From Escherichia coli (GTDB lineage: Bacteria; Pseudomonadota; Gammaproteobacteria; Enterobacterales; Enterobacteriaceae): 64,000 bases of DNA. Under the pieces are notes generated by a model that was given only the letters and a program-made list of their open reading frames with translations, did not search any database and had not been told where the DNA came from. The position numbers were made by a program, and so were the translations under genes. The stretch lies in the NCBI RefSeq assembly GCF_003991155.1, contig NZ_CP031293.1. One strand, given 5' to 3'. This document shows positions 28,252-36,385 of the stretch, piece by piece. Numbering within the stretch: the stretch's first letter is position 1; every line of letters begins with the position of its first letter.

Positions 28252-28983
28252 ATGAAAAAATGGAAAGTACGTAACGCGTTGATAGCATTAGCCGTGCTGC
28301 TGGCCGGTTGTTCCAGTAATGCGCAGTATAATAGCAGTGCATCGGGTAATGTCGGCACCGCCTGGGGTGGGGATGTGCACTCAACGGTTCAGGGCGTATC
28401 TGCTGAACGAGCCTGGCGCGATCCGGCAGAGATGATCGTTATTAGTTATTCGACTAATGTTCCTTCCGGCTACGACCGCGTTTATAGCATTCGTATTAAC
28501 GAACTGGAATATGCTATTCGCGATGGTAATTTTAAATCTCTACCAATTACGCGGGTTTATGATTCATCCAATAATGAACCACGCTATATTGTCCATGCCA
28601 GAGTCGGAATGAATTATCAATTATATGTCCGTAATTACAGTCGTAACACCAACTACGAGATCGTTGCTACGGTTGATGGCCTGGATGTGCTGAACGGCAA
28701 GCAAGGTTCGCTGAATAACAACGGTTATATTGTGAATGCCGGAGATTCGTTAGCGATTAAAGGATTCCGCAAAGATAAACATACCGAAGCGGCTTTTCAG
28801 TTCGCCAACGTTGCTGATTCCTACGCAGCCAATTCGGCGCAAGGCGATGTGCGTAATACCGGTGTAATCGGCTTTGCCGCCTTTGAATTACAAGGCCCGG
28901 CGAAAAACGCGCTGCCGCCGTGCTCTGGACAAGCCTTTCCGGCAGATAACAATGGCTATGCGCCGCCACCGTGTCGGAAATAG
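28252..28983 (+). CDS. Hypothetical lipoprotein (strain-variable gene between speA and speB)
   Basis: 243-aa ORF with signal peptide plus lipobox 'LLAGCSS'; Asn/Tyr-rich; C-terminal 'PPCSGQ...PPPCRK' Cys pair; good SD-to-ATG context; no gene at this position in K-12 as far as I recall. Confidence 0.7.
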   Translation: MKKWKVRNALIALAVLLAGCSSNAQYNSSASGNVGTAWGGDVHSTVQGVSAERAWRDPAEMIVISYSTNVPSGYDRVYSIRINELEYAIRDGNFKSLPITRVYDSSNNEPRYIVHARVGMNYQLYVRNYSRNTNYEIVATVDGLDVLNGKQGSLNNNGYIVNAGDSLAIKGFRKDKHTEAAFQFANVADSYAANSAQGDVRNTGVIGFAAFELQGPAKNALPPCSGQAFPADNNGYAPPPCRK

Positions 28984-31165: not shown

Positions 31166-33157
31166 ATGTCCTCACGTAAAGAGCTTGCCAATGCTATTCG
31201 TGCGCTGAGCATGGACGCAGTACAGAAAGCCAAATCCGGTCACCCGGGTGCCCCTATGGGTATGGCTGACATTGCCGAAGTCCTGTGGCGTGATTTCCTG
31301 AAACACAACCCGCAGAATCCGTCCTGGGCTGACCGTGACCGCTTCGTGCTGTCCAACGGCCACGGCTCCATGCTGATCTACAGCCTGCTGCACCTCACCG
31401 GTTACGATCTGCCGATGGAAGAACTGAAAAACTTCCGTCAGCTGCACTCTAAAACTCCGGGTCACCCGGAAGTGGGTTACACCGCAGGTGTAGAAACCAC
31501 CACCGGTCCGCTGGGTCAGGGTATTGCCAACGCAGTCGGTATGGCGATTGCAGAAAAAACGCTGGCGGCGCAGTTTAACCGTCCGGGCCACGACATCGTC
31601 GACCACTACACCTACGCCTTCATGGGCGACGGCTGCATGATGGAAGGCATCTCCCACGAAGTTTGCTCTCTGGCGGGTACGCTGAAGCTGGGTAAACTGA
31701 TTGCGTTCTACGATGACAACGGTATTTCTATCGATGGTCACGTTGAAGGCTGGTTTACCGACGACACCGCAATGCGTTTCGAAGCTTACGGCTGGCACGT
31801 TATTCGCGATATCGACGGTCATGACGCGGCATCCATCAAACGCGCAGTAGAAGAAGCGCGCGCAGTGACTGACAAACCGTCCCTGCTGATGTGCAAAACC
31901 ATCATCGGTTTCGGTTCCCCGAACAAAGCCGGTACCCACGACTCCCACGGTGCGCCGCTGGGCGACGCTGAAATTGCCCTGACCCGCGAACAGCTGGGCT
32001 GGAAATACGCGCCGTTCGAAATCCCGTCTGAAATCTATGCTCAGTGGGATGCGAAAGAAGCAGGCCAGGCGAAAGAGTCCGCATGGAACGAGAAATTCGC
32101 TGCTTACGCGAAAGCTTATCCGCAGGAAGCCGCTGAATTTACCCGCCGTATGAAAGGCGAAATGCCGTCTGACTTCGACGCGAAAGCGAAAGAGTTCATT
32201 GCTAAACTTCAGGCTAATCCGGCGAAAATCGCCAGCCGTAAAGCGTCTCAGAATGCTATCGAAGCGTTCGGTCCGCTGTTGCCGGAATTCCTCGGCGGCT
32301 CCGCTGACCTTGCTCCGTCTAACCTGACCCTGTGGTCTGGTTCTAAAGCAATCAACGAAGATGCTGCAGGTAACTACATCCACTACGGTGTTCGCGAGTT
32401 CGGTATGACCGCGATTGCTAACGGTATCTCCCTGCACGGTGGTTTCCTGCCGTATACCTCAACCTTCCTGATGTTCGTGGAATACGCACGTAATGCCGTA
32501 CGTATGGCTGCGCTGATGAAACAGCGTCAGGTGATGGTTTACACCCACGACTCCATCGGTCTGGGCGAAGATGGCCCGACTCACCAGCCGGTAGAACAGA
32601 TCGCTTCTCTGCGCGTGACCCCGAACATGTCTACATGGCGTCCGTGTGACCAGGTTGAATCCGCAGTAGCGTGGAAATACGGCGTTGAGCGTCAGGACGG
32701 CCCGACTGCGCTTATCCTCTCCCGTCAGAACCTGGCGCAGCAGGAACGTACTGAAGAGCAGCTGGCAAACATCGCGCGCGGTGGTTATGTGCTGAAAGAC
32801 TGTGCTGGTCAGCCGGAACTGATCTTCATCGCGACCGGTTCTGAAGTTGAACTGGCTGTTGCCGCCTACGAAAAACTGACTGCCGAAGGCGTGAAAGCGC
32901 GCGTGGTTTCCATGCCGTCTACCGACGCATTCGACAAGCAGGACGCGGCTTACCGTGAATCCGTACTGCCGAAAGCGGTTACCGCTCGTGTTGCGGTGGA
33001 AGCTGGCATTGCTGACTACTGGTACAAGTATGTTGGCCTGAACGGTGCTATCGTCGGCATGACCACCTTCGGTGAATCTGCTCCGGCAGAGCAGCTGTTT
33101 GAAGAGTTCGGCTTCACCGTTGACAACGTTGTTGCGAAAGCAAAAGCGCTGCTGTAA
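31166..33157 (+). CDS. tktA: Transketolase 1
   Basis: 663 aa from '[41 protein letters not shown]'; TPP-binding motif 'GDGCMMEG'. Confidence 0.97.
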
Positions 33158-33176
33158 TCGGTAAGATGTTTTGTGA

Positions 33177-33198
33177 GAAGGGCCGCAAATGCGGCCCT
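33177..33198 (+). terminator. Stem-loop after the tktA stop (probable terminator)
   Basis: 'agggccgcaaatgcggccct'; weak downstream T-tract. Confidence 0.45.
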
Positions 33199-33229
33199 TC
33201 AGATTGTTGGCAAAGTGCGCGTTGTTTAT

Positions 33230-33266
33230 GCCGGATGCGGCGTGAACGCCTTATCCGTCCTACAAG
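33230..33266. repeat. REP element (left partner of the BIME that carries the IS insertion)
   Basis: 'gccggatgcggcgtgaacgccttatccgtcctacaag'. Confidence 0.8.
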
Positions 33267-33297
33267 ATTTTGCAAATTCAACATATTGCAGGAAGTA

Positions 33298-33357
<60 letters not shown>

Positions 33358-33386
33358 GCCAGACACAGCGCCGTCAGGCGCTGTTG

Positions 33387-34606
<1,220 letters not shown>

Positions 34607-34631
34607 AGTTTTGTCTTTGCTATCAGTCTCA

Positions 34632-34660
34632 AGGGCCGCGAAAGCGGCCCTTTTTTTACT
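34632..34660 (+). terminator. Intrinsic terminator (plus-strand T-tract) between the REP and the convergent SPFH gene
   Basis: 'gggccgcgaaagcggccc' stem followed by 'ttttttt'. Confidence 0.6.
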
Positions 34661-35564
34661 TAGTAGAGATAAACGGAACTGTGCTGCCGGGGATCATGGT
34701 ATCGGGCAGTTTACCGTCCCAACGCTCAGCAGTGGTGAGGGCAACAAGTCCGGGATTCTCCCGCAGAGCTTCACCGCGCAGGCGGATAGCTTCTGCTTCA
34801 GCCGCACTTTTTAAACGAATAGTTTCAGCCTCTGCCGCGCCTCTTACGCGAATAGTTTCCGCTTCTGCTTTGGCTGCCGCTAGTTTACTGTCTGCTTCCG
34901 CCTGGGCCTGAGTTACCGCTATTTGCGCCTGGATTTTCTCCGTTTCCAGATTTTGCTTACGCGTGGCAATGGCGACTTCTGCTTTCATTCGGTCTTCAAT
35001 CGACTTTTCATAAGCGTCAGAAAAATCAATATTTTCAATCTGGACCCCGTCAATTACCACTGGCCCAACAACGGCTTTGCGCATGGCATTTTGCAGATCC
35101 TGAACCAGTTTTGTGCGATCCTGTACGGCGCTGATGGCGGTATATTGTCCGAAAACGTTCTCCAGTTGAGTTGGCAACTGACGGACAATCAGACGATCTT
35201 TTAATGCTTCAATGGTGTTGTAGGTGGTATAAACCGCGCCTGCTTCTGAAGGTTTAATGTGGAAGCTGACTGATACTGTCATTTGTGCCGGTTGCTGGTC
35301 GCGGCTGTAGGCCTGTAATCCCTGATAGACCACAGCCTGATTACGCGTGGAAATTTTCTCTACGCTTTCCATAAAAGGGATCTTAAAACCCAGCCCCGGC
35401 TCGGCAACTTTTACGATTTTTCCGTAGCGCAGCAAAATGCCGCGTTCACCTTCATTAACGGTGTAATACGAGAGAAATGGCAGCACAACCACGGCAAGCA
35501 CGCCAATGGCGATAGCAAGAGATTTTTGTGGGCGAAATGAGGTTAATGAAACAGGTGCTTTCAT
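34656..35564 (-). CDS. SPFH/band-7 (prohibitin/flotillin-like) membrane protein
   Basis: 302 aa; N-terminal TM helix 'LAIAIGVLAVVVLPFLSYY', SPFH core, then an Ala/Glu-rich coiled-coil with repeats 'AEAETIRVRGAAEAETIRLKSAAEAEAIRLRGEA'. Not one of the four K-12 SPFH proteins (HflK, HflC, QmcA, YqiK) as far as I recall. Confidence 0.85.
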   Translation of the reverse strand: MKAPVSLTSFRPQKSLAIAIGVLAVVVLPFLSYYTVNEGERGILLRYGKIVKVAEPGLGFKIPFMESVEKISTRNQAVVYQGLQAYSRDQQPAQMTVSVSFHIKPSEAGAVYTTYNTIEALKDRLIVRQLPTQLENVFGQYTAISAVQDRTKLVQDLQNAMRKAVVGPVVIDGVQIENIDFSDAYEKSIEDRMKAEVAIATRKQNLETEKIQAQIAVTQAQAEADSKLAAAKAEAETIRVRGAAEAETIRLKSAAEAEAIRLRGEALRENPGLVALTTAERWDGKLPDTMIPGSTVPFISTK

Positions 35565-35941
35565 ATGAATCTTCCTTGAGTAAAGTATAGGAATATGTCA
35601 CATGGGGTGATGAGAAAACAGACAACAGCCGATAATTCAGAATTTATAAAGGGGATGAGCGAAAAAATAATAAACGTAATAAGTATGTTTTCGAACATTC
35701 AATAAGAAAATAGAGATGTGTATCACAAATATAGTGATGAATAATTTGTTGATTTTGTAGTTTACTTAACAGATTTATAATTGACTTTTTAAAAGCTTAT
35801 TTCATGTTGTTGTTATTTAATATTTTGTTATTTTTGCTCGTGGAGTTTCTCCTTTCATGTGTCCAATTGCTTTCGTTAATTTGTACGCGTATTTTATTTT
35901 TACCGCCGGACTGTACCCTAAAAATAAAATAAGGATAATTT

Positions 35942-36385
35942 ATGCGGCTTATTGATTATTTTCCAGAGTCATCAATCTCAGTTATACATTCAGCAAAAGA
36001 TTGGCAGGAAGCTATCGATTTCTCGATGGTATCATTGCTGGATAAAAACTATATCAGCGAGAATTACATTCAGGCAATTAAAGGTTCCACCATTAACAAT
36101 GGCCCTTATTATATTCTCGCACCAGGCGTGGCAATGCCTCATGCACGACCGGAATGTGGGGCGCTTAAAACCGGGATGTCTTTGACATTACTTAAACAAG
36201 GTGTTTATTTTCCGGGGAATGACGAACCAATTAAATTACTCATCGGGCTTTCTGCTGCCGATGCCGATTCGCACATTGGCGCTATTCAGGCGTTAAGTGA
36301 ATTACTGTGCGAAGAAGAAATACTCGAACAACTCTTAACAGCATCATCAGAAAAACAATTAGCGGGCATTATCAGCCGCGGATAA
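35942..36385 (+). CDS. cmtB: PTS mannitol-type EIIA component (cryptic)
   Basis: 147 aa 'MRLIDYFPESSISVIHSAKDWQEAIDF...'; EIIA(Mtl/Fru) His motif 'GVAMPHARP'. Confidence 0.88.
   Translation: MRLIDYFPESSISVIHSAKDWQEAIDFSMVSLLDKNYISENYIQAIKGSTINNGPYYILAPGVAMPHARPECGALKTGMSLTLLKQGVYFPGNDEPIKLLIGLSAADADSHIGAIQALSELLCEEEILEQLLTASSEKQLAGIISRG

What the first reader, a model, noticed from the sequence alone, without database searches (positions are those of the whole stretch)
34656..35941. Solitary SPFH/band-7 gene with an AT-rich upstream region next to the IS
A 302-aa SPFH protein (N-terminal TM helix, SPFH core, Ala/Glu-rich coiled-coil with AEAETIR-type repeats) sits between tktA and cmtB, where K-12 has no gene as far as I recall. 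It has no NfeD-like partner and is preceded by about 375 bp of strongly AT-rich DNA (35565-35941), which is typical of horizontally acquired and H-NS-silenced material. SPFH proteins organise membrane microdomains, and some are components of phage-defence or stress systems.
Basis: partly seen in the sequence, partly recalled or inferred. Interest (0 to 1): 0.5.

Follow-up and report, generated by a model that had tools for sequence, protein, structure and literature searches.

The report
Ancestral prohibitin-like membrane gene lost in K-12
This is an intact but unstudied membrane-scaffold (SPFH/prohibitin-like) gene that has long sat next to tktA in Escherichia and its relatives; the K-12-type lineage deleted it, so it is an ordinary inherited gene and not a recently imported island.

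Summary
ORF 34656-35564 (-) encodes a 302-aa SPFH/Band_7 protein (Pfam E=5.6e-32). It has one N-terminal membrane anchor, an 87-residue helix and three 11-aa AEAExIR repeats. It lies between tktA and cmtB, has no NfeD partner, and 377 bp of 29% GC DNA lies upstream.

The interpretation mostly fails.
- **Not imported.** The gene is in 1815 of 5426 complete E. coli genomes and in E. albertii and E. whittamii at this exact position. It is also convergent with tktA in Pseudocitrobacter and in a Kluyvera-like contig, and next to epd in a Klebsiella-like contig. CDS GC is 49.5% and dN/dS is 0.01-0.03.
- **K-12 lost it.** 3575 genomes share one near-identical junction without the gene.
- **The AT-rich DNA is older than the deletion.** Most of it is the cmtB regulatory region. 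K-12 keeps it, and CRP binds the K-12-type promoter in published data.
- **The IS is unrelated.** A 1279-bp IS621 later inserted into a REP.

The protein is most likely a periplasm-facing, HflC/prohibitin-like ring scaffold; this mechanism is inferred. No defence-system model matches it. Phages carry 40-53% identical homologues. Low-to-moderate interest.

The parts
34656..35564 (-). CDS of the 302-aa SPFH/Band_7 protein. RefSeq annotates it as 'prohibitin family protein'; the product is WP_000646942.1 in strain BH100N, whose DNA is identical across window 34600-35945.
   Evidence: ORF; Pfam Band_7 E=5.6e-32; RefSeq annotation of identical DNA; dN/dS 0.007-0.03 among Escherichia alleles.
35466..35522 (-). 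N-terminal signal-anchor, residues 15-33 (SLAIAIGVLAVVVLPFLSY). The preceding flank carries K2, R11 and K14.
   Evidence: Mean Kyte-Doolittle 2.33. The N flank has 3 basic and 0 acidic residues; the C flank has 2 basic and 2 acidic. AF2 places a helix at 12-32. The N-in/C-out topology is inferred from the positive-inside rule and from the HflC-like EGERG motif after the anchor.
34935..35462 (-). SPFH (Band_7) core, residues 35-210.
   Evidence: Pfam match; AF2 alpha/beta domain with pLDDT above 90; best Foldseek PDB match is HflC 7vhq_G, E=1.7e-17.
34758..35018 (-). Long Ala/Glu-rich helix, residues 183-269. In solved SPFH cages the equivalent helix forms the wall.
   Evidence: AF2 helix 183-269. 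It aligns to the coiled-coil helices of HflC, HflK, prohibitin and erlin.
34770..34868 (-). Three tandem 11-aa units, residues 233-265 (AEAETIRVRGA / AEAETIRLKSA / AEAEAIRLRGE).
   Evidence: 33-nt periodic direct repeats D1/D2. Escherichia has three units, other genera have two, and one E. albertii variant has a 22-aa deletion.
34659..34757 (-). Conserved C-terminal tail, residues 270-302 (NPxLVxLTTAERWDGKLPxTMIPGxxVPFI).
   Evidence: Nearly invariant across 46 homologues. pLDDT is low in the monomer model. It matches the separate phage family phrog_38808, E=1.8e-19. A role as the cage lid is inferred.
35565..35676 (-). 5' leader and core promoter region of the SPFH gene. This is the part of the intergenic DNA missing in K-12-type strains. 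It includes the SD at 35571-35577 and a block at 35636-35651 (TTCAGAATTTATAAAG on the + strand) that is conserved across genera.
   Evidence: Alignments A3 and A5; coordinates. No transcription start was mapped, and the simple sigma-70 scan gave nothing convincing.
35677..35941 (.). AT-rich (26% GC) cmtB upstream regulatory region. All Escherichia share it, including K-12.
   Evidence: It aligns colinearly with the K-12 spacer through conserved blocks. GC values.
35712..35727 (.). CRP-like site AGAGATGTGTATCACA, at the position homologous to the K-12/ETEC cmtB CRP site TGTGATCTACAACACG.
   Evidence: Pattern hit with 2 mismatches; hits of this quality are not enriched in the window, so the match alone is weak. 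Positional homology from A3. CRP ChIP-seq peak at cmtB in ETEC H10407 (PMC4287617). SELEX and reporter data in K-12 (PMC3105977).
34631..34652 (.). GC-rich hairpin AAGGGCCGCGAAAGCGGCCCTT followed by T7. It lies directly 3' of the SPFH stop codon, and its T-run is oriented for transcripts coming from tktA.
   Evidence: Terminator scan. It has a 91%-identical second copy at 33178-33199 just after tktA. Pseudocitrobacter has a single such hairpin between the two convergent genes.
33178..33291 (.). The first hairpin copy (33178-33199) followed by a REP (33230-33263). Together with REP 34582-34606 this forms the REP cluster between tktA and the SPFH gene.
   Evidence: Sequence; repeats D3/I1; sub-threshold Rfam hits to the REP-derived families naRNA4 and ES036.
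33303..34581 (-). IS621 (IS110 family), 1279 bp, with transposase at 33407-34387. It is inserted in the REP and is not part of the SPFH unit.
   Evidence: RefSeq annotates it as 'IS110-like element IS621 family transposase' at the same junction in about 8 complete genomes; the best is PEC403 at 99.9%. The empty site is seen in FCI17 and E. albertii (GTATGTAG|GCCTGATAAG).
31166..33157 (+). tktA, convergent with the SPFH gene.
35942..36385 (+). cmtB, divergent from the SPFH gene and the first gene of cmtBA-yggP.

Best explanation
**Identity and history (shown).** The ORF is a functional, vertically inherited gene for a single-pass inner-membrane SPFH protein of the HflC/prohibitin-like type. Its old position in Enterobacteriaceae is between epd and tktA, convergent with tktA. 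In Escherichia the cmt-ygg cluster lies between epd and this gene, so it shares a divergent, AT-rich, CRP-bound intergenic region with cmtB. One deletion or replacement removed the ORF, about 110 nt of its leader and the REP spacer. That allele now occupies about two thirds of E. coli, including K-12, B, HS and O157.

**Mechanism (inferred by homology).** The short basic N-terminus stays in the cytoplasm. Residues 15-33 anchor the protein in the membrane, and the SPFH domain and long helix face the periplasm. Many copies would assemble side by side into a closed ring or cage on the outer face of the inner membrane, as in solved HflK/C, prohibitin and erlin complexes. The cage would fence off a membrane patch and control access of client membrane proteins to quality-control machinery such as FtsH. 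The conserved C-terminal tail would close the cage or bind a partner.
For: **Identity.**
- Pfam Band_7, E=5.6e-32.
- The AF2 model shows a TM helix, an SPFH domain and an 87-residue helix.
- Foldseek top hits are all cage-forming SPFH proteins: HflC 1.7e-17, erlin1/2, PHB2 2e-15, HflK, stomatin, QmcA.
- Sequence search of the PDB gives HflC 2e-13, HflK 1e-10, QmcA 1e-6 and prohibitin 4e-5.

**Topology.** The N flank has 3 basic and 0 acidic residues; the post-anchor flank has 2 basic and 2 acidic. The anchor-EGERG arrangement is like HflC.

**Functional constraint.**
- dN/dS is 0.007-0.03 across six Escherichia alleles, and dS reaches 0.72 against E. albertii.
- The family is 55-60% identical out to Pseudomonas and Shewanella.

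**Ancestry.**
- Same slot in E. albertii, E. whittamii, Escherichia sp. MOD1-EC7003 and a second E. coli-like species representative.
- Convergent with tktA in Pseudocitrobacter through one shared hairpin.
- The order epd | SPFH | tktA in a Kluyvera-like contig; a Klebsiella-like contig shows epd | SPFH before it ends.

**Loss.** 3575 genomes share one junction, 3076 of them at 99% identity or more; 1815 genomes carry the gene. K-12 keeps the cmtB-proximal AT-rich blocks.

**No conserved partner.** No flanking gene family recurs across genera among the related loci clustered (68 carried the gene). This fits the published absence of NfeD for the SPFH3 and SPFH4 subfamilies (PMC2636767).
Against: - No experiment on this protein was found in the searchable literature.
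- Oligomer formation, orientation and any FtsH link are inferred only.
- In P. aeruginosa, deleting nine SPFH genes gave almost no phenotype (PMC13086221), so a clear quality-control role may not show up.
- Hinderhofer et al. noted that prohibitin-like SPFH4 proteins rarely coexist with HflK/C. hflKC is core in E. coli (my knowledge), so SPFH-positive strains would have both, which argues against simple redundancy.
- Representative genomes of E. fergusonii, E. marmotae and E. ruysiae did not appear among the best 80 of 230 confirmed loci. More than one loss, or some recombinational spread, is therefore possible.
- The K-12-type junction carries a different tktA terminator, so it is a replacement and not a clean excision.
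Confidence: 0.6

Rival explanations
1. One reading: a horizontally acquired islet, marked by AT-rich DNA and an adjacent IS, and silenced by H-NS.
For: - Presence is variable within E. coli: 33% of complete genomes.
- 377 bp of 29% GC DNA lies upstream.
- An IS is adjacent.
- Family members occur on prophages, phages and a plasmid.
Against: - The locus is the same in other Escherichia species, and the tktA adjacency extends to other genera.
- CDS GC is 49.5% against 51.3% for the window.
- dS scales with species distance, and dN/dS is about 0.02.
- K-12 also has the AT-rich DNA, where it serves cmtB and CRP occupies it in vivo in ETEC.
- The IS621 sits at this spot in only about 8 complete genomes; BH100N has IS1397 there and most genomes have nothing.
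- There are no direct repeats, tRNA gene or integrase.
Confidence: 0.06
2. A phage-related function. The protein would be an anti-phage or superinfection-exclusion factor, or a domesticated phage gene that alters infection outcome, for example by acting on FtsH as HflK/C do for lambda CII.
For: - 288 phage records encode relatives, and 123 of them cover at least 80% of the protein.
- Identity reaches 53% in jumbo phages (GAP32, fHe-Yen9-04, BF, CBB) and 45% in E. coli phage Skarpretter.
- PHROG 200 matches with E=6e-63.
- A 62%-identical Salmonella copy sits in a lambdoid prophage between a ParE-like gene and an Rrf2-family gene.
- The phage copies lie in early or replication regions.
- The HflK/C-FtsH-CII link is established knowledge (PMC1838920).
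Against: - No PADLOC model matches.
- No defence or mobile genes are nearby.
- The chromosomal position has been fixed for a long time and the gene is under strong purifying selection, unlike typical defence islands.
- Presence in lytic jumbo phages points to a phage-beneficial membrane role, not a host defence.
Confidence: 0.1
3. A functional partner of the cmt PTS operon. The two would be co-regulated from the shared CRP-bound divergent promoter region, and the scaffold would organise or stabilise the CmtA transporter.
For: - The divergent arrangement with cmtB is conserved in all Escherichia species examined.
- The CRP-like site at 35712-35727 lies between the two genes.
Against: - K-12-type strains keep cmtBA without the gene.
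- Pseudocitrobacter and the Kluyvera-like and Klebsiella-like contigs have the gene without cmt.
- In other genera the neighbours are unrelated.
Confidence: 0.08
4. Same protein, opposite orientation: a cytoplasm-facing scaffold like QmcA.
For: QmcA is also a structural match (8z5g_A, E=5.9e-12) and a sequence match (E=1e-6).
Against: - The basic N-terminus before the anchor and the acidic EGERG motif after it resemble HflC, whose bulk is periplasmic.
- There is no NfeD partner, whereas QmcA has YbbJ.
- HflC and HflK score much better than QmcA.
Confidence: 0.1

Closest known systems
HflC (with HflK) of E. coli, the FtsH-modulating SPFH cage (PDB 7VHP/7VHQ/7WI3)
   Same: - Best sequence match (E=2e-13) and best structure match (E=1.7e-17, 25% identity).
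- Same layout: short basic N-terminus, single anchor followed by EGERG, SPFH domain, long helix.
- Same predicted periplasmic orientation.
   Different: - Scores fall far below the curated HflC and HflK family cut-offs: 59.9 against 134.4 bits, and 37.4 against 159.4 bits.
- It is a single gene and not an hflK-hflC pair.
- It lacks HflC's insertions and is shorter (302 against 334 aa).
- It has a distinct conserved C-terminal motif, ERWDGKLP..PGxxVPFI.
Prokaryotic prohibitins (SPFH4 of Hinderhofer et al. 2009) and eukaryotic PHB1/PHB2
   Same: - RefSeq names it 'prohibitin family protein'.
- A phage homologue is annotated with the CDD SPFH_prohibitin domain.
- It is solitary with no NfeD, as reported for SPFH4.
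- It matches the PHB1/2 cage subunits structurally (E=2e-15).
   Different: - Sequence similarity to eukaryotic prohibitin is weaker than to HflC (E=4e-5 and 3e-4).
- It coexists with HflK/C, which the 2009 survey called rare.
- Assignment to SPFH4 could not be tested with that paper's own subfamily models.
QmcA-YbbJ (stomatin-like SPFH1 with NfeD) and YqiK (flotillin-like) of E. coli K-12
   Same: They belong to the same superfamily and share the overall cage-subunit architecture.
   Different: - No NfeD gene is adjacent.
- The predicted orientation is opposite to QmcA.
- The FloT family match is 17.5 bits against a cut-off of 700.
Phage-encoded SPFH proteins (PHROG 200), e.g. the Escherichia phage Skarpretter band 7 protein and Cronobacter phage GAP32 gp025
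   Same: The match is full-length at 40-53% identity and includes the C-terminal tail; PHROG 200 E=6e-63.
   Different: - The phage copies sit in early or replication gene blocks.
- The window copy is a chromosomal gene at a fixed, syntenic site with no phage genes around it.

Membership tests
SPFH / Band 7 superfamily (PF01145) | Band_7 domain detectable by the family profile | tested here: met
   E=5.6e-32 over residues 35-210, covering the whole model 2-176/176.
SPFH / Band 7 superfamily (PF01145) | Membrane anchor followed by the SPFH fold and a long C-terminal helix | tested here: met
   Hydropathy peak at residues 15-33. AF2 places a helix at 12-32, the domain at 33-181 and a helix at 183-269. 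Foldseek hits to solved SPFH cage subunits reach E=1e-17.
SPFH / Band 7 superfamily (PF01145) | Assembly into a large homo- or hetero-oligomeric ring or cage | not testable with these tools
   Only a monomer model could be made. This needs multimer prediction, BN-PAGE or cryo-EM.
HflC / HflK (FtsH modulators) | Score above the curated equivalog cut-off | tested here: not met
   - TIGR01932: 59.9 bits against 134.4.
- NF008259: 53 against 427.
- TIGR01933: 37.4 against 159.4.
- NF008181: 35.7 against 660.
HflC / HflK (FtsH modulators) | Paired hflK-hflC genes | tested here: not met
   It is a single gene between tktA (plus the IS) and cmtB. No second SPFH gene recurs nearby among the related loci clustered.
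HflC / HflK (FtsH modulators) | Physical and functional interaction with FtsH | not testable with these tools
   Needs pull-down or genetic tests.
Prokaryotic prohibitins (SPFH4) | Solitary gene without an NfeD partner | tested here: met
   RefSeq annotation of the identical region shows no NfeD-like gene nearby. No neighbour is conserved across genera. The published criterion is in PMC2636767.
Prokaryotic prohibitins (SPFH4) | Closer to prohibitins than to other SPFH subfamilies | tested here: inconclusive
   PDB sequence search gives HflC at 2e-13, clearly better than prohibitin at 4e-5. Foldseek places PHB2 and erlin just behind HflC. The subfamily models of the 2009 paper were not available.
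Stomatin-NfeD operons (QmcA-YbbJ type) | Adjacent, co-oriented NfeD gene | tested here: not met
   Downstream is a hairpin, REPs, the IS and convergent tktA. Upstream is divergent cmtB.
Known anti-phage defence systems | Match to a PADLOC protein model, or a defence-gene neighbourhood | tested here: not met
   0 PADLOC families at E up to 0.01. All neighbours are metabolic genes.
Horizontally acquired genomic islet | Atypical composition of the gene itself | tested here: not met
   CDS GC is 49.5% against 51.3% for the window. Only the intergenic DNA is AT-rich, and K-12 shares it.
Horizontally acquired genomic islet | Absence from sister species at that locus | tested here: not met
   The gene is in the same slot in E. 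albertii, E. whittamii and Escherichia sp. MOD1-EC7003. It is adjacent to tktA in Pseudocitrobacter and in a Kluyvera-like contig.
Horizontally acquired genomic islet | Mobility genes or repeats that delimit the insert | tested here: not met
   The IS621 is a later insertion into a REP and is present here in about 8 complete genomes. The duplicated hairpins flank only the REP cluster, not the gene.

The most novel reading that the evidence does not exclude
About a third of E. coli strains (including the B2 archetype CFT073) and other Escherichia species keep a fifth SPFH assembly that K-12 lacks. It would be a periplasm-facing homo-oligomeric cage distinct from HflK/C. The same protein family has been taken up repeatedly by jumbo and temperate phages. 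On this reading it controls a membrane process that phages also need to manipulate, such as FtsH access, membrane-protein turnover or envelope integrity during infection. K-12-based work on bacterial SPFH biology would then have missed a whole component.
Probability: 0.12. Interest if true: 0.55.

Novelty: new member of a known kind. Interest (0 to 1): 0.27.

Why it matters
Work on E. coli SPFH proteins uses K-12, which has four of them (HflK, HflC, QmcA, YqiK). This locus shows that a third of sequenced E. coli, including the archetypal uropathogen CFT073, carry a fifth. That fifth protein is very strongly conserved, and the laboratory lineage deleted it. It is a clean natural presence/absence pair for testing what a solitary prohibitin-like cage does in a Gram-negative envelope. 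It also offers a host counterpart for the many phage-encoded homologues. Beyond that it is an annotated, ordinary accessory gene. The main practical result is a correction: neither the gene nor the AT-rich DNA is foreign.

Tried and rejected
- **Promoter search.** The sigma-70 scan gave only two weak hits, fewer than in shuffled sequence, and the -10 of the minus-strand hit is not conserved between alleles. I also considered a sigma-E-type TCTGA element in the conserved block at 35636-35651. No GGAACTT-like -35 sits at the right distance, so I dropped it. No promoter is claimed.
- **CRP pattern search.** It found 30 hits against 26 expected, so the site at 35712-35727 counts only through positional homology and the published ChIP-seq.
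- **Pairwise K-12 vs window alignment.** For the distal spacer it was only marginal: score 26 against 19.7 +/- 2.7 for shuffles, with a maximum of 31. Homology became clear only in the seven-allele alignment.
- **Rfam on 33000-36100.** No RNA family matched the AT-rich region; there were only sub-threshold REP-derived hits near tktA.
- **Small ORFs in the intergenic region.** They are 20-45 aa and have no support.
- **Tandem Repeats Finder.** It missed the 33-nt repeats because their identity is too low; the repeat finder caught them.
- **Literature searches.** Searches on cmtB/tktA/band 7, on 'prohibitin family protein' with E. coli, and on guessed CFT073 locus tags found nothing on this protein.
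- **PaFlo9 of P. aeruginosa.** It is monocistronic (PMC13086221) and may be an orthologue, but I had no sequence to test this.
- **Phylogroup assignment of the 1815 carriers.** This could not be done with these tools. Only CFT073 (B2) was checked as a carrier, and K-12, C41(DE3), HS, ECOR29 and O157:H7 as non-carriers.
Full report

Yes. The ORF runs from 35564 (ATG) to 34656 (TAA) on the minus strand and encodes 302 aa. An AAGGAAG ribosome-binding site lies 6 nt upstream at 35571-35577.

Pfam Band_7 covers residues 35-210 with E=5.6e-32. One strongly hydrophobic stretch, residues 15-33, follows a basic N-terminus with K2, R11 and K14. An AlphaFold2 model built on 46 homologues has mean pLDDT 84.9. 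It shows a helix at 12-32, an alpha/beta domain at 33-181, one 87-residue helix at 183-269 and a low-confidence tail.

The AEAETIR repeats are three 11-aa units at residues 233-265. They appear in DNA as 33-nt periodic direct repeats. Other genera have two units, and one E. albertii variant lacks two.

The upstream 377 bp (35565-35941) is 28.9% GC, against 49.5% for the CDS and 51.3% for the window. K-12 MG1655 has a 313-bp tktA-cmtB spacer with no gene.

**2. Distribution in E. coli**

A megablast of 34600-35945 against 5426 complete E. coli genomes found the full region in 1815 of them. It was always next to cmtB and was annotated 'prohibitin family protein'. In 461 genomes identity was 99% or more; in most of the rest it was 91-94%.

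All other genomes match only the last ~82 nt before cmtB. A query across the K-12 junction is found in 3575 genomes, 3076 of them at 99% identity or more. The locus therefore has essentially two states, which together account for 5390 of 5426 genomes, and the gene-less state looks like a single event.

CFT073 (phylogroup B2, my knowledge) carries the window's allele. K-12, C41(DE3), HS, ECOR29 and O157:H7 lack the gene.

**3. Gain or loss?**

A scan of one genome per bacterial species found the gene in the same cmtB | SPFH | tktA slot in four species representatives:
- E. albertii
- E. whittamii
- Escherichia sp. MOD1-EC7003
- a second E. coli-like species representative

In Pseudocitrobacter (85% identity) the gene is convergent with tktA. 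The two stop codons are separated only by one hairpin, GGGCCGCGAAAGCGGCCC. In Escherichia that hairpin is present twice, at 33178-33199 and 34631-34652. The two copies flank a REP cluster.

Two further contigs carry close homologues next to epd:
- The contig with the 83%-identical protein, named Kluyvera intermedia by one source, has the order fbaA-pgk-epd | SPFH | tktA-loiP-speB.
- The contig with the protein named Klebsiella spallanzanii shows fbaA-pgk-epd | SPFH and then ends.

So the gene is an old resident between epd and tktA. What Escherichia has in addition is the cmt-ygg block.

Among six Escherichia alleles dN/dS is 0.007-0.03. dS grows with species distance: 0.11 within E. coli, 0.24-0.37 to the other clades, and 0.72 to E. 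albertii. This is the pattern of a vertically inherited gene under strong constraint. It does not look like a silenced import.

One caveat applies. Representative genomes of E. fergusonii, E. marmotae and E. ruysiae did not appear among the best loci. More than one loss, or recombinational spread of either allele, is therefore possible.

The K-12-type allele is a replacement and not a clean excision. It diverges right after the tktA stop codon and carries a different terminator, AGGTCGCTTCGGCGACCT.

**4. The AT-rich DNA**

A seven-allele alignment shows that the K-12 spacer is colinear with the cmtB-proximal ~265 nt of the window's intergenic region (35677-35941, 26% GC). They share these conserved blocks:
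- TTTxCGxAC..CAATA
- ATCACAAATA
- TTGAC
- TTGTTAT
- CAATTGCTTTCATTAAA, and everything from there to the cmtB start

K-12's own spacer is 33% GC.

The block at 35712-35727 (AGAGATGTGTATCACA) is the positional homologue of K-12/ETEC TGTGATCTACAACACG. That sequence is the site assigned to a CRP ChIP-seq peak at cmtB in ETEC H10407 (PMC4287617). cmtB was also a SELEX target and a CRP-activated promoter in K-12 (PMC3105977).

Most of the AT-rich DNA is therefore the cmtB regulatory region and predates the deletion. Only 35565-35676 (35% GC) is specific to the SPFH gene. It contains the SD and a block at 35636-35651 that is conserved as far as the Kluyvera-like and Klebsiella-like contigs.

I could not identify a promoter. 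H-NS binding is plausible for such DNA but was not tested.

**5. The IS**

Comparison with the empty sites in FCI17 and E. albertii puts a 1279-bp element at 33303-34581, inside a REP. The empty site is GTATGTAG|GCCTGATAAG, which reads ATCAGGC|CTAC on the other strand.

RefSeq calls it IS621 family. The same tkt-IS621-prohibitin junction occurs in only about 8 complete genomes, the best being PEC403 at 99.9%. Strain BH100N, identical in the SPFH region, has IS1397 at about the same place. FCI17 has nothing there.

The IS is a later event in a REP hotspot and has nothing to do with the origin of the SPFH gene.

**6. What kind of SPFH protein?**

NCBIfam gives only sub-threshold matches:

| Family | Score (bits) | Cut-off (bits) |
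|---|---|---|
| HflC | 59.9 | 134.4 |
| HflK | 37.4 | 159.4 |
| FloT | 17.5 | 700 |

Sequence search of the PDB ranks HflC (2e-13), HflK (1e-10), QmcA (1e-6), prohibitin (4e-5) and PHB2 (3e-4). Foldseek ranks HflC 7vhq_G (1.7e-17) first, then erlin1/2, PHB2 and PHB1, HflK, stomatin and QmcA. All of these are subunits of solved ring or cage assemblies.

The family is well defined. It has 253 clusters at 50% identity with E of 1e-30 or better, nearly all 280-300 aa long. It reaches 55-60% identity in Pseudomonas, Shewanella and Cellvibrio.

Clustering the flanking ORFs of the related loci (68 of which carried the gene) found no neighbour conserved beyond a single genus. Hinderhofer et al. 2009 found no NfeD partner for the HflK/C (SPFH3) or prohibitin-like (SPFH4) subfamilies, and said no bacterial SPFH4 member had been studied (PMC2636767). 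'Solitary' is therefore normal for this type.

**7. Most likely mechanism**

- *Shown:* the protein has the complete subunit architecture of SPFH cages and is under strong purifying selection.
- *Inferred from the positive-inside rule and the HflC-like anchor-EGERG arrangement:* the N-terminus is cytoplasmic and the bulk is periplasmic.
- *Inferred from homology to HflK/C, prohibitin and erlin structures:* subunits assemble into a closed ring or cage on the periplasmic face of the inner membrane. The cage encloses a membrane patch and limits access of client proteins to quality-control factors such as FtsH. The invariant C-terminal tail would close the cage or bind a partner.

None of this was tested. 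The weak phenotypes of nine SPFH deletions in P. aeruginosa (PMC13086221) warn that the role may depend on conditions.

**8. The phage angle**

No PADLOC model matches, and the neighbourhood is metabolic. However, tblastn finds relatives in 288 phage records, 123 of them nearly full-length:
- 47-53% identity in jumbo phages of Cronobacter, Yersinia, Erwinia, Serratia and Pectobacterium
- 45% identity in E. coli phage Skarpretter
- 40-47% identity in Rhizobium phages

PHROG 200 matches with E=6e-63. The phage copies sit in early or replication regions. A 62%-identical Salmonella copy lies in a lambdoid prophage.

The family clearly moves through phages. That keeps a phage-related role for the chromosomal copy open at low probability. 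It does not change the evidence that this copy was inherited vertically.

**9. Verdict**

The finding is a real, intact, annotated but uncharacterised SPFH gene. The inference of a foreign, H-NS-silenced islet next to an IS, possibly for defence, is not supported. It is a new member of a known kind. Its interest is modest and comes mainly from being a conserved fifth SPFH paralogue that the K-12 lineage lost.

Noticed in passing
window 33303-34581 (-): A complete 1279-bp IS621 (IS110 family) with transposase at 33407-34387. It is inserted in a REP at ATCAGGC|CTAC, with the CT dinucleotide on both sides. From my knowledge this is the canonical IS621 target. The ~195-nt non-coding end at 34388-34581 is where the bridge RNA of this IS family is encoded. 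No Rfam family matched it.
   Followed up: partly
window 39090-39405: The class II fructose-bisphosphatase gene yggF (966 nt in K-12) survives only as two short overlapping fragments. RefSeq shows the same broken state in CFT073 and BH100N.
   Followed up: partly
window 28252-28983 (+): A 243-aa ORF with a lipoprotein-like N-terminus (…LLAGCSS) lies between speA and speB. It is annotated 'hypothetical protein' in CFT073 and BH100N. K-12 has only a short spacer there.
   Followed up: no
window 40618-43616 (-): Between yggC and epd there is a run of ORFs. It corresponds to the ECF-transporter cluster (S component, T component, two ATPases) plus a PPC-domain DNA-binding protein annotated in CFT073. 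K-12 lacks it.
   Followed up: no
window 35942-36385 and loci L003-L006, L011: cmtB is unusually variable: 85-97% protein identity among Escherichia, while the adjacent cmtA is 97-99%. The window's cmtB is closer to K-12's (98.2% DNA identity) than to that of another SPFH-positive strain (95.7%). This suggests a recombination mosaic around the intergenic region.
   Followed up: partly
L089 23593-24496 (CFT073, NC_004431.1): RefSeq flags the CFT073 copy as 'frameshifted'. Compared with the window it differs by one substitution plus five single-base deletions clustered within 55 nt. That pattern looks like an error in the old assembly and not a real pseudogene.
   Followed up: partly
window 33178-33215 and 34615-34652: A 38-nt inverted repeat (79% complementary) includes two 91%-identical copies of a GC-rich hairpin and brackets the REP cluster between tktA and the SPFH gene. 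Pseudocitrobacter has a single hairpin and no REPs. The REP block therefore seems to have been inserted into, and to have duplicated, a shared terminator.
   Followed up: partly
L088 5001-5858 (Salmonella enterica contig JBSBGJ010000024.1): A 62%-identical homologue sits in a lambdoid prophage between a ParE-like gene and an Rrf2-family gene, upstream of the integrase. L081 (Microvirga, an alphaproteobacterium) has a 58%-identical copy; one flanking ORF begins with a DNA-methyltransferase-like motif (DPPY), and the rest were not identified. The family evidently travels on mobile elements.
   Followed up: no
window 33175-33307: Sub-threshold Rfam hits to the REP-derived sRNA families naRNA4/CssrE (32 bits, gathering score 59.5) and ES036/CssrF (35.5 bits, gathering score 37.6). 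The ES036 match runs across the left end of the IS.
   Followed up: no
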